A stretch of 64,000 bases of DNA from Isurus oxyrinchus. Taxonomy: Eukaryota. This document shows, piece after piece, positions 3,001 to 6,000 of the stretch. The stretch spans positions 97,030,001-97,094,000 of the forward strand of contig JANJGN010000007.1 of the NCBI GenBank assembly GCA_026770705.1, read 5' to 3'. Every line of letters begins with the position of its first letter. Position 1 is the first letter of the stretch. The position numbers are program-made.

Positions 3001-6000
3001 TTATAAGATTTAAAATAAGCCAAAAAAAAACGAAGTGACTTCTGATTTTGTATGGCCGGTTGAGCAGTTCCCAAACTCTGGTGAAGTTAACAATCTATTC
3101 AATGGCTTGAGCTGACGGACTGTGAATGTTTACGGGCCACCGGGAATGGATCTCTGAGTTCATTATATGGGAGATGCTCTGTCTTGGATGGGCACAGTCA
3201 CAATTTGATTATGCTTGACTAGGGAAGCACCTCTTCCCCGGTAAGATCATAAGCGGTAGAACGTTGTCCAGAATTTCTGTGAAGGATTGAAACCTGGGAC
3301 TTCAAAACACGTGTCAGATATCAGGTTGTGTTTTGTGACATTTGATGTCAACCGGGATGTGCGCCACCAAGAGCTGGGACTGATATTGAGTTGCAGAGTG
3401 TGGCATTTGTTCAAGGAGGGTAAGCACGATTTCAGACACCCCTTTTTTTCTAGTACCCGTGTCACTGGCAGAGCTGTATTAGCTGTCAGCTGGTGGTGTA
3501 CTTTGAGGAGAGAATTATCCCTGTGTTCATCGGGGCAATCAGTGTCTGTTAGCATTGCAATCCTCTCCAGCGGCATTGGTCTCAATGTTCCGGAAATACT
3601 CCTTATAACTTCCTGCAGCAAGATAGCTACCACATGTGGTTGCTCCTGACCCAGCTTGAATAGCAGTGCTCTGCTGCTGTGCAGACCAGGGCGAGTGACG
3701 CAGTGCATATCCATTTGAATCAGCTGCCCCAGCTGGTACTTGCCAGAATCTGTATCCGATTCGTTCCCTTCCTGACACTGGCTCCGTTGTGCCATTCGTG
3801 TTGCCAATAGCTTAATGTACGGTCTAGAGTGATGTGAAAGAGTATTGTCTGTCTAGGCACAACGAACTGCGATTTTCCACAGGGATCAGCCTTCACACTG
3901 GCCCTCTTACTTGAGGCTGTTGTGTATGCTGATGAATTCACCCAGGATTTCCACTCTAAGAACATTCTAGAATATCGAAACAACATTCATTGAAGATATA
4001 TATTCCCTGGAAACGTATTTCACAAAATTGAGACTCCGGCAATATGCTGCAAATACTGTCCTTCAACAACCCTAAGGGAAAGATTTCATATCCAGTGATT
4101 TTACGGACACTGGCATATCACAAATGAGTATAACATATAATTTTATGGATTTGGACAGGGTAGAGCCTCGGGTTTATATACTTATTTAAATCCTGCAGGT
4201 TTTACGACCACCCAATACTTGCTGATTTCAGCATCAGCAGCGGGCGGATTCACATTATCAGTACTGGGTTTCATCATTGTGAAGCAACGTGTCTCAAAGA
4301 AAACTAAAGTTAAACAAATCATTTTCTCTTTTTTTCCTTCCAAACACTCCCAAAAAGAGCCCACAAGATCTGGATGCTAAATGTAGAGATTAGCTAATTA
4401 CAACTGAACTGCTCCAACAATAATTAACTTCCTCGCAGCGACCGGGGCATTACTGAACGTCAACTGATACCCTGCGCTTTAAGATGTGTGGAGCCCTTCA
4501 CAGCCACTCCAGTCCGCTTCGTTTACAAATATAGCAACCGCTGATTTATTGAACACGGTTTTCATCAGCAGCGGTGTAACTCTAAACTCGAATTGCCAAA
4601 ATAGCGTGGAATTTTCTAAGATCGCCTAAGAGACCGGCGTTTCGCACATGCTTCATTACAGAAAAAATCATTGACTGCGCTTTTCCGCCATTTGGAGAAC
4701 TGTCCCAAGGATTTTTCAGTCAGTCTCTCGTTGTTCTGCCTGTATTTCAACAACCCCTTTTCTAATGGCATTAAATGTCAGAAAACATGCAATTCCTTAA
4801 AAATCTGGCATCTGGCGATATTTACAGTGGCCTTAACGCTCTCGTGTTTCTTAGGTGGTTAAATGTTTCATTTTAGCTTCATTCTTTACTAGGCATGCAG
4901 AACAATGACAAAAGACCCAACCGTGGTATACAGGAGGTACGTTTCCACACTTACATCAACCAAAATATGTGTATAACCAAATGCAAATCTATTTAATCTA
5001 ACATTTTTCATGTTTGTTGCAAATATTTATACAAAATATGAGGAGCAATGGTCAGAAACATCTTAATATATTCTGTACTATTCAGGTCGTTAACTTGCTA
5101 ATTAAATGCTCGTACAGATCAGGCAGTAAATCGGTGGCAGTGCACATATATTCTTAATTAGCAAACTCTGGAACGGATCCAGAATAACAAAGTTCAAGCC
5201 CGACCATTGTAGTTTGAGATGTTGAGTCAGTTTTAAAATCTAACAGTGAAATCTGTTAACATAGAAGTTACCAAGAATCTTTCGGATTTTCTTAAATTGC
5301 TAAAGCCCTATGAGGGAATGAAGCTGGCCATGCTTATCATGTCTGATGTGTCTATAACCCCTGCCCACACCATGCGGTTGGCCCTTAAAATCCACCTGAA
5401 TCTTCTTTACAAGCTGAGCACAACCTTCAAGTTCAAATGGAATGGATGAAAACAGCCTTCAATTCCAGCGACCCCTTAGGCCCAGAATTAATTTGACACT
5501 CTTCGGAATGTCACATGCTGGATGCCATATTGCAGGTAGTTCATCGTGTCTGTCCAAAACTATAGAGATGGCACTATGGATGGACTTTCTGAAGTGTTAA
5601 GAACACCAGCAGATACCTGACAGGAAGTTCCTTTACCGTAAATTAGCCTCCTCCTTGAATCATATTATTACATTAGGAATTTGGACCAGACGTGTCATTT
5701 TGCACCCAGCATAGAAGGGTCGAATTTCTCCTTCCTCCCACGGGCTGCGAGACAAAGCAGACAGAATAAGCTTATGGAAAGTCTGAAGATTATTTGTCCA
5801 CTGTTTGTACAAATATTGATTTCGATGCACGGTAATTTGCAGTCATTCAGTCAAGAATTTGTAATATCCAAAGTCTGTTGCATGAAATTGCCACTACCAT
5901 AAAAAAAATGCAGCAATGCAAAATTATTCTGCTCACAGCTCGAATTTATTTGTTAATATAAAATGTTAACATACTGTTGTGGCAAGTAAATGGCGCAGTG

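What the first reader, a model, noticed from the sequence alone, without database searches (positions are those of the whole stretch)
4199..4380. Upstream paralog has lost its TM-exon splice donor, predicting a tyrosine-less short-tailed decoy (paired-receptor arrangement)
Seen in sequence: the copy 1 TM exon has an intact acceptor and the same 111-nt length, but the donor is AAAG|ttaaac versus AAAG|gtaaga in copy 2. Read-through adds 23 Tyr-free residues and stops at 4378-4380. The TM has no charged residue, so DAP12/FcR-gamma coupling is not expected. Established: paired receptor clusters include non-signalling members, such as SIRP-gamma with its short tail. Inference: one G>T change may have turned an inhibitory receptor into a non-signalling ligand competitor rather than a dead gene.
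Basis: partly seen in the sequence, partly recalled or inferred. Interest (0 to 1): 0.72.

Follow-up and report, generated by a model that had tools for sequence, protein, structure and literature searches.

The report
Shark SIRP-like paralogue lost its splice donor
One of two tandem shark immune-receptor genes has a broken splice signal after its membrane-anchor exon, so it can no longer attach its inhibitory tail, but whether it now works as a silent decoy or is a young dead gene cannot be told from this window.

Summary
The window is cartilaginous-fish DNA, not human, and holds a complete SIRP-like gene (copy 2) and the 3' part of a tandem paralogue (copy 1).

- **Copy 1 TM exon (4199-4309):** it is open, 111 nt and has an intact acceptor. 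Its donor reads AAAG|TTAAAC, against AAAG|GTAAGA in copy 2.
- **Read-through:** it adds 23 Tyr-free residues and stops at 4378-4380.
- **Copy 1 tail exons:** exon 4 (4893-4936) and the ITIM exon 6 (7164-7295) are still intact. Exon 5 (from 6870) carries a frameshift, an ancestral-frame stop and a lost donor.
- **Exon 5 may be dispensable:** a catshark gene model lacks it.
- **Age of the lesion:** neutral-decay simulations reject a gene dead since the duplication. Donor loss is therefore probably late.
- **Nothing shows a selected decoy:** dN/dS is about 0.75, the exon is no better conserved than the introns, and no database protein carries the read-through tail. The V and C1 exons lie off the window.
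- **Other outcomes:** TM-exon skipping would stay in frame and give a soluble form.
- **Precedents:** short Tyr-free family members are annotated in other cartilaginous fishes, and horse CEACAM42 does the same thing.

Verdict: a real feature, a new member of a known kind, with the decoy reading only partly supported.

The parts
44..10535 (+). Copy 1 side of the tandem duplication (3' part of the gene; the 5' part lies before base 1)
   Evidence: Collinear blastn blocks 44-10535 against 44361-57397 at 62-79% identity.
611..946 (+). Copy 1 relic of a second C1-set exon (pseudoexon with stops and indels; AG acceptor and GTAAGA donor still present)
   Evidence: tblastn with shark SIRP-like proteins shows stops and frame changes. 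It aligns full-length to the working C1 exon and shares a 1-nt deletion with the copy 2 relic.
4199..4309 (+). Copy 1 transmembrane exon, 111 nt, open, phase 1/1, acceptor intact
   Evidence: The peptide is 68% identical to Heterodontus P0009 and 65% to Mustelus P0021.
4310..4315 (+). Destroyed 5' splice site, TTAAAC (T at +1) where copy 2 has GTAAGA
4310..4380 (+). Read-through extension of 23 Tyr-free codons ending in TAA at 4378-4380
   Evidence: No GT lies in this stretch.
4770..4775 (+). ATTAAA, the first poly(A)-signal-like hexamer after the read-through stop and upstream of exon 4 (motif match only)
4893..4936 (+). Copy 1 cytoplasmic exon 4, 44 nt, intact (acceptor ctttactag, donor gtacgt), peptide MQNNDKRPNRGIQE
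6870..6973 (+). Copy 1 exon 5 remnant. It has a 1-nt deletion just after 6911, TAG at 6965-6967 in the ancestral frame, and AG at 6974-6975 in place of the canonical donor. The shifted frame stays open, and a weak in-phase GT follows 6971.
7164..7295 (+). Copy 1 exon 6, open. It has a 6-nt in-frame deletion and keeps VNYTAL and TFYSQV. Stop TAG at 7293-7295.
41895..42276 (+). Copy 2 exon 1: start codon, signal peptide and V-set domain with a J-like VGNGTGSKLLV in a single exon
   Evidence: Pfam V-set E = 3.2e-11. 62-65% identity to shark SIRP-like proteins, including their leaders.
43517..43828 (+). Copy 2 C1-set exon
   Evidence: Pfam C1-set E = 2.4e-11. PDB hits: UrIg2 1e-13, SIRP-alpha 1.7e-10, SIRP-gamma 2.1e-9.
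45022..45282 (+). Copy 2 relic of the second C1 exon (acceptor lost, decayed)
50530..50640 (+). Copy 2 TM exon with donor AAAG|GTAAGA
51229..51272 (+). Copy 2 cytoplasmic exon 4 (tentative, found by phase and likeness to shark proteins)
   Evidence: 75% identity over 12 residues to Mustelus P0021.
53148..53252 (+). Copy 2 exon 5 with SPYAAL and TVYAQV, donor GTGAGA
53460..53627 (+). Copy 2 exon 6 with VTYVAP and KEYAQI. Stop TAA at 53625-53627.

Best explanation
Copy 1 is the 3' part of a tandem paralogue of a cartilaginous-fish SIRP-like inhibitory receptor gene. The gene encodes a signal peptide plus V domain, a C1 domain, a TM segment and a Tyr-motif tail.

Copy 1 most likely worked as a membrane receptor with an ITIM tail for most of the time since the duplication, probably in a form that skipped exon 5. 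A comparatively late G-to-T change at +1 of the TM exon's donor then cut the TM exon off from the still intact ITIM exon (inferred).

Today the locus cannot make an ITIM receptor by normal splicing (shown from sequence). If its unseen 5' exons are intact and transcribed, its products are non-signalling. One would be a read-through, membrane-anchored form with a Tyr-free tail of about 32 residues. The other would be an in-frame form that skips the TM exon and is soluble (inferred).

I read it as a young loss-of-signalling variant, either a nascent decoy or a nascent pseudogene. I do not read it as an established, selected decoy.
For: - **Donor loss:** the donor is TT, against GT in copy 2, and no GT precedes the stop.
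- **Intact tail exons:** exon 4 and exon 6 of copy 1 are open and keep their splice sites. Exon 6 keeps VNYTAL and TFYSQV.
- **Lesions cluster in exon 5:** all three tail lesions sit in exon 5, which is 105 of 278 tail nt. The chance of that is about 0.05 (own arithmetic).
- **Exon 5 may be dispensable:** Scyliorhinus model XP_038661941.1 (P0018) goes from TM to exon 4 to exon 6 without exon 5.
- **Neutral-decay simulation:** noncoding K between the copies is 0.35, from 1730 mismatches and 157 gap openings in 6217 columns. The chance that the TM exon, exon 4, exon 6 and their remaining splice dinucleotides all survive is 0.11 at d = 0.05 and 0.03 at d = 0.08. None of 4000 runs survived at d = 0.20.
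- **TM character kept:** this has a chance of 0.13 to 0.02 for 16 to 32 random substitutions.
- **Conservation against other sharks:** copy 1's TM peptide is closer to working proteins in other sharks (68% and 65%) than copy 2's is (55% and 50%).
Against: - There is no direct evidence of expression or of intact V and C1 exons, which lie off the window.
- Substitution tests show no constraint (dN/dS 0.63-0.90). The integrity argument therefore rests on about 290 nt and on a simple indel and substitution model.
- Exon 5's three lesions could equally be decay that followed gene death.
- The 'exon-5-less' precedent is an automatic gene model that also lacks a V domain.
- Neither search for the read-through tail returned a hit (32 candidates examined, none). 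The window's own species appears not to be annotated in that set, since the best V hit is 65% identical, so this absence is weak evidence.
Confidence: 0.58

Rival explanations
1. One reading: copy 1 is an established, selected tail-less membrane receptor (SIRP-gamma-like) that competes for ligand without signalling. It would be made by read-through of the dead donor and polyadenylation within the former intron.
For: - The read-through ORF is short and Tyr-free, and the TM has no charge.
- An ATTAAA lies at 4770, before exon 4.
- The TM exon is well conserved against other sharks and has kept its TM character.
- Six of the 48 TM-bearing relatives have uncharged TMs with short Tyr-free tails. 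They come from Leucoraja, Mustelus, Heterodontus, Mobula and Callorhinchus, plus P0062, whose name was not looked up.
- Horse CEACAM42 is a cDNA-verified case of a TM exon extended to a stop, with the ITIM exons left unused (PMC5856374, passages read).
Against: - The ITIM exon 6 and exon 4 are still intact with their splice sites. This is unexpected if they had been useless for long.
- There is no constraint signal.
- No protein carries this tail.
- The read-through peptide is simply the translation of intron sequence that is about 72% alike in copy 2, where the same frame stops after 3 codons.
- Exon skipping or nonsense-mediated decay are equally plausible fates.
Confidence: 0.2
2. The gene is still an inhibitory receptor. 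Either T at 4310 is an assembly error or a rare allele, or a cryptic donor keeps the TM exon joined to exon 4. A frame-preserving candidate is AAC|GTGTCT at 4288|4289.
For: - Exons 4 and 6, their splice sites and both Tyr motifs of exon 6 are intact.
- A frame-preserving GT lies 21 nt upstream of the dead donor.
Against: - By the recalled consensus MAG|GTRAGT, the cryptic site is poor: C at -1, T at +4 and C at +5.
- Position +6 also differs between the copies.
- Substitution errors are rare in current assemblies (recalled).
Confidence: 0.12
3. Copy 1 is an old, fully dead unprocessed pseudogene, and the open TM exon is luck.
For: - Exon 5 has a frameshift, an ancestral-frame stop and a lost donor.
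- The TM donor is lost.
- The exon is no better conserved than the intron.
Against: - The simulation gives 0 of 4000 runs with all three exons intact at d = 0.20, and 0.1% at d = 0.15. About 0.17 is expected per lineage since the duplication.
- The TM peptide is closer to the outgroups than copy 2's is.
Confidence: 0.1

Closest known systems
Mammalian SIRP family (SIRP-alpha inhibitory, SIRP-beta DAP12-coupled, SIRP-gamma non-signalling)
   Same: - Copy 2 has a V-set domain with a J-like motif, a C1-set domain, a TM and a tail with four Tyr positions arranged like xxYAxL and xEYAxI.
- Its C1 exon hits SIRP-alpha (2wng, 1.7e-10) and SIRP-gamma (4i2x, 2.1e-9).
- SIRP-gamma binds CD47 but appears to have no signalling function (PMC3716694, passages read).
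   Different: - There is only one working C1 domain; the second survives as a decayed pseudoexon.
- Orthology to mammalian SIRPs and CD47 binding were not tested.
- SIRP-gamma's short tail is normally encoded (recalled), not the result of a broken donor.
Horse CEACAM1 paralogues CEACAM42 and CEACAM50 (PMC5856374)
   Same: These are duplicated inhibitory-receptor genes that still carry ITIM exons. Their mRNA extends the TM exon into the intron up to a stop, giving a short tail without ITIM. In CEACAM42 the extension is 37 nt and the tail is 11 aa (passages read).
   Different: - They belong to a different family (CEACAM).
- An alternative downstream donor is used, rather than a destroyed one.
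- The horse cases were shown by cloned cDNA and expression, whereas here there is only genomic sequence.
Annotated short-tailed SIRP-like gene models of cartilaginous fishes
   Same: - They belong to the same family by C1 and V similarity, with an uncharged TM and Tyr-free tails of 9-16 residues.
- Examples are Mustelus asterias XP_078066428.1, Heterodontus francisci XP_067906082.1, Mobula hypostoma XP_062923439.1 and the Leucoraja erinacea model P0008.
- Inhibitory, charged-TM and short-tailed Heterodontus models are all reported on a contig of the same length (99,651,266), so presumably on one chromosome.
   Different: - These are automatic models whose exon structure I could not see, so it is unknown whether their short tails arise by donor read-through.
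- None shares the window's read-through peptide.
UrIg / UrIg2 of elasmobranchs (PMC12227049)
   Same: UrIg2 is the best solved-structure match of the C1 exon (9dmx, 1e-13). It is a non-rearranging VJ plus C1 membrane protein of sharks.
   Different: [quoted passage not shown]
- The paper's text does not contain the words SIRP or ITIM.
- The window gene has one C1 domain and an ITIM tail. Any relationship beyond the shared C1 fold was not resolved.

Membership tests
SIRP-like V-C1 receptor family | N-terminal V-set domain with a J-like G-x-G-T-x-L-x-V strand | tested here: met
   Met for copy 2 only: Pfam V-set E = 3.2e-11 and the motif VGNGTGSKLLV. Copy 1's V exon is off the window and unseen.
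SIRP-like V-C1 receptor family | C1-set constant domain(s); mammalian SIRPs have two | tested here: inconclusive
   There is one working C1 exon (Pfam C1-set E = 2.4e-11; SIRP-alpha and SIRP-gamma hits). The second C1 is present only as a decayed pseudoexon in both copies.
SIRP-like V-C1 receptor family | Cytoplasmic tail with ITIM-type tyrosines | tested here: met
   Copy 2 has SPYAAL, TVYAQV and KEYAQI. Copy 1's exon 6 has VNYTAL and TFYSQV but cannot be reached by normal splicing.
SIRP-like V-C1 receptor family | Binding of CD47 or an equivalent ligand; recruitment of SHP phosphatases | not testable with these tools
   This needs protein experiments.
SIRP-like V-C1 receptor family | Orthology to mammalian SIRP genes (tree or synteny) | not tested
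   Only automatic names of the nearest proteins say 'SIRP-like'. Others are named tapasin-related, Ig lambda-like or MHC II beta-like.
Paired-receptor cluster | Neighbouring genes with closely similar ectodomains | tested here: inconclusive
   Tandem paralogy is shown for the 3' parts. Copy 1's ectodomain exons are off the window.
Paired-receptor cluster | Members with opposite or absent signalling | tested here: inconclusive
   In the window, copy 2 is ITIM-bearing and copy 1 is cut off from its tail. In relatives, among the 48 with a TM out of 81 examined, 27 have ITIM-like tails, 14 have a charged TM window and 6 have uncharged TMs with short Tyr-free tails. All are predicted models and none was shown to function.
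Non-signalling tail-less receptor (SIRP-gamma-like decoy) | Short cytoplasmic tail without Tyr motifs and an uncharged TM | tested here: met
   Met in silico only, for the read-through product.
Non-signalling tail-less receptor (SIRP-gamma-like decoy) | Intact, expressed ectodomain that binds the ligand of the inhibitory partner | not testable with these tools
   The exons are outside the window and no expression data were available. No database protein carries the tail.
Unprocessed pseudogene | Disabling lesions spread over the coding exons and splice sites | tested here: inconclusive
   Lesions: the TM donor, and in exon 5 a frameshift, a stop and a lost donor. Intact: the TM exon, exon 4, exon 6 and four splice dinucleotides. 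Death since the duplication is rejected by simulation.

The most novel reading that the evidence does not exclude
This would be a paired-receptor gene of a cartilaginous fish caught in the act of changing kind. A single substitution at a splice donor would have turned a SIRP-like inhibitory receptor into an expressed, non-signalling ligand binder, either membrane-bound by read-through or soluble by in-frame exon skipping. Its ITIM exon is still intact behind it. That would show how decoy members of paired-receptor families arise in the oldest living jawed-vertebrate lineage.
Probability: 0.2. Interest if true: 0.5.

Novelty: new member of a known kind. Interest (0 to 1): 0.3.

Why it matters
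Paired immune-receptor families are thought to diversify by small changes that swap or remove the signalling tail of a duplicated inhibitory gene. Verified examples are mammalian, such as the CEACAM and SIRP cases read here; KIR is recalled.

If this shark paralogue is expressed, it would extend that route to cartilaginous fishes. It would also offer a very clean case: one base, with the tail exons still readable.

If it is only a young pseudogene, it is ordinary turnover in a multigene family. Either way, the window documents that the shark SIRP-like gene descends from a form with two C1 domains, as in mammalian SIRPs.

Tried and rejected
- **Constraint tests:** comparing exon and intron identity and Nei-Gojobori dN/dS gave no usable signal. 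Identity was 71% against 62-79%, and dN/dS was 0.76 for TM, 0.90 for exon 4, 0.63 for exon 6 and 0.75 combined.
- **Search for the read-through tail:** the TM-plus-read-through peptide found nothing in the 5.8-billion protein set in either length class ('longer', 32 candidates and none significant; 'near', no candidate). This is weak evidence, because the window's own species seems unannotated there.
- **Splice-site scoring:** I did not score cryptic donors with a trained model because none was on hand. The judgement rests on the recalled consensus.
- **Other scans of the window:** Rfam found 0 matches and Tandem Repeats Finder found 0 rows. Pfam on eight long ORFs found only transposon fragments in 3 of 8.
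- **Literature:** four searches for SIRP-like genes of cartilaginous fishes listed no paper on the subject. UrIg was considered and left as a distant C1 relative.
- **Joined protein not made:** the spliced gene model was searched exon by exon only (32/41, 56).
- **Collections not used:** Genome contigs holds only bacteria and archaea, so it was not used.
- **Left unchecked:** the flanking genome, raw reads and RNA data. No structure or complex prediction was run, since no claim needs one.
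Full report
**What the window is.** The 64-kb window has no N and about 40% G+C. It is rich in retroelement fragments: two of eight long ORFs scanned match reverse transcriptase and one matches GIY-YIG. The exon translations are only distantly like any solved human protein (E of 1e-9 or weaker for V, 1e-10 for SIRP-alpha). They are 54-65% identical to predicted proteins of Heterodontus, Scyliorhinus, Hemiscyllium and Leucoraja (5 proteins passing among 92 candidates). 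All 20 further relatives whose names I looked up are from cartilaginous fishes. I therefore take the window for shark or ray DNA, not human.

**Check of the observation.**
- The acceptor is cctgcag|G, and the exon is 4199-4309, 111 nt and phase 1/1.
- The peptide is FTTTQYLLISASAAGGFTLSVLGFIIVKQRVSKKTK, with an uncharged 22-residue core.
- The donor is AAAG|TTAAAC. The paralogous exon at 50530-50640 is also 111 nt, with donor AAAG|GTAAGA, and 79 of 111 bases are identical.
- Read-through gives VKQIIFSFFPSKHSQKEPTRSGC, 23 residues with no Tyr, and TAA at 4378-4380.
- No GT occurs between 4310 and the stop.
- The two copies are collinear over 44-10535 and 44361-57397.

**The intact gene (copy 2).** The exons, each searched separately, are:
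- Exon 1, 41895-42276: start codon, signal peptide and V-set domain in one exon. Its leader is homologous to the leaders of the shark proteins.
- C1-set exon, 43517-43828.
- TM exon, 50530-50640.
- A tentative 44-nt exon 4, 51229-51272.
- Exon 5, 53148-53252, peptide KTTNVMSPYAALDMKKLPKAPRTKHEESTVYAQVG.
- Exon 6, 53460-53627, with VTYVAP and KEYAQI.

**What else is in copy 1.**
- Exon 4 (4893-4936) is intact, with acceptor ctttactag and donor gtacgt.
- Exon 6 (7164-7295) is open. It has a 6-nt in-frame deletion and keeps a textbook ITIM (VNYTAL) and TFYSQV.
- Exon 5 (from 6870) is damaged in three ways: a 1-nt deletion just after 6911, TAG at 6965-6967 in the ancestral frame, and AG in place of the canonical donor at 6974-6975.
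- The shifted frame of exon 5 stays open (ORF 6840-7139). A weak GT after 6971 would even restore phase with exon 6, but I put little weight on that.
- A Scyliorhinus gene model (XP_038661941.1, P0018) runs from TM to exon 4 to exon 6 with no room for exon 5.
- The second Tyr of exon 5 is also lost in the Heterodontus and Mustelus proteins. Exon 5 therefore looks dispensable in this family.

**How long has copy 1 been broken?** Substitution-based tests say nothing. dN/dS is 0.76 for TM, 0.90 for exon 4, 0.63 for exon 6 and 0.75 combined, and exon identity of 71% matches the introns at 62-79%. Integrity is more telling.
- From the collinear blocks, K is about 0.35, with 0.091 gap openings per mismatch.
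- Under neutral drift, the chance that the TM exon, exon 4, exon 6 and their four remaining splice dinucleotides all stay intact is 0.43 at d = 0.02, 0.11 at 0.05, 0.03 at 0.08 and 0.001 at 0.15. It was 0 of 4000 runs at 0.20.
- With about 0.17 expected per lineage, a gene dead since the duplication is excluded under this simple model.
- Keeping an uncharged, Pro-free TM core has a chance of 0.13, 0.05 and 0.02 for 16, 24 and 32 random substitutions.
- Copy 1's TM peptide is nearer to Heterodontus and Mustelus proteins (68% and 65%) than copy 2's is (55% and 50%).
- All three tail lesions fall in exon 5, which is 105 of 278 nt. The chance of that is about 0.05 (my arithmetic).

The simplest history is as follows. 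After the duplication, copy 1 stopped using exon 5 but remained an ITIM receptor. Later the TM donor was lost.

**What the locus can make now (inference).** Normal TM-to-tail splicing is impossible. There are three possible outcomes.
- **Intron retention.** The former intron is only 583 nt, and an ATTAAA lies at 4770. If downstream introns are still spliced, however, the early stop invites nonsense-mediated decay.
- **TM-exon skipping.** This is a frequent result of +1 donor mutations (recalled). It stays in frame, because the exon is 111 nt and phase 1/1, and would give a soluble V-C1 protein.
- **A cryptic, frame-preserving donor.** AAC|GTGTCT at 4288|4289 looks poor by the recalled consensus.

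The first two outcomes both give non-signalling ligand binders, provided the unseen V and C1 exons are intact and the gene is transcribed.

**Family context.** A search of 1.84 billion representatives with the C1 exon gave 434 hits at E of 1e-3 or better.
- Among the 81 fetched proteins of 150-450 residues, 48 have a predicted C-terminal TM.
- Of those 48, 27 have at least one ITIM-like motif in the tail and 14 have a charged residue in the TM window. The charged group includes LLISRC types in Heterodontus and Hemitrygon.
- Twelve of the 48 have Tyr-free tails of 45 residues or fewer. Six of these have uncharged TMs.
- These are automatic models, and my TM detection is crude.
- The family therefore looks like a paired-receptor family across cartilaginous fishes, and short-tailed members are nothing new in it.
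- Horse CEACAM42 is a verified mammalian case of the same mechanism: the TM exon is extended to a stop and the ITIM exons are left unused (PMC5856374, passages read).
- SIRP-gamma's lack of signalling is stated in PMC3716694 (passages read). Its four-residue tail is recalled.

**Verdict.** The feature is real, and the 'uncoupled tail' part of the reading is right. 'Decoy rather than dead gene' is open. I give about 0.58 to a young loss-of-signalling variant of unresolved fate, 0.20 to an established decoy, 0.12 to an error, polymorphism or cryptic rescue, and 0.10 to an old pseudogene. It is a new member of a known kind and of modest interest.

**Unchecked.** I could not check the sequence upstream of base 1, raw reads, transcripts or other individuals. 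In the library searched, I found no paper on SIRP-like genes of cartilaginous fishes. Supplements were not consulted.

Noticed in passing
window 611-946 and 45022-45282: Both copies carry, in the intron after the C1 exon, a decayed relic of a second C1-set exon. It aligns full-length with the working C1 exon. The two relics share a 1-nt deletion, so the exon was already dead before the gene duplicated. The ancestor therefore had V-C1-C1, like mammalian SIRPs. Copy 1's relic still has AG and GTAAGA splice signals.
   Followed up: partly
window 50641-50652: Read-through of the intact copy 2 donor would stop after three codons (GKK, then TAA). Simple intron retention in the working gene would therefore also give a short Tyr-free tail.
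   Followed up: no
window 41895-42276: In copy 2 the start codon and signal peptide are contiguous with the V domain in one exon, with an in-frame TGA just upstream at 41892-41894.
   Followed up: partly
window 53499-53516 versus 7191-7208: The disabled copy 1 keeps a canonical ITIM (VNYTAL) at the position where the working copy 2 has VTYVAP, which has lost the hydrophobic residue at +3.
   Followed up: no
window 7606-8109 (+), 12975-13415 (-), 58262-58861 (-): There are retroelement debris: two reverse-transcriptase fragments (RVT_1, E = 1.2e-4 and 2.2e-12) and an ORF with a weak GIY-YIG match (E = 1.2e-3, below Pfam's cut-off), possibly a Penelope-like element. About 31 kb of such sequence separates the two gene copies.
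   Followed up: partly
window 23272-23396, 36884-37008, 57752-57876; also 35820-36647 versus 56251-57094: Dispersed repeat families at 61-90% identity lie outside the collinear gene duplication and are presumably transposon copies. No Rfam family and no tandem array was found in the window.
   Followed up: no
window 3247-3852 (-) and 47618-47932 (-): Long open frames of 201 and 104 codons lie on the minus strand at collinear places in the C1-to-TM intron of both copies. The 201-codon frame has no Pfam match; the 104-codon frame was not scanned. They are probably an old shared insertion.
   Followed up: no
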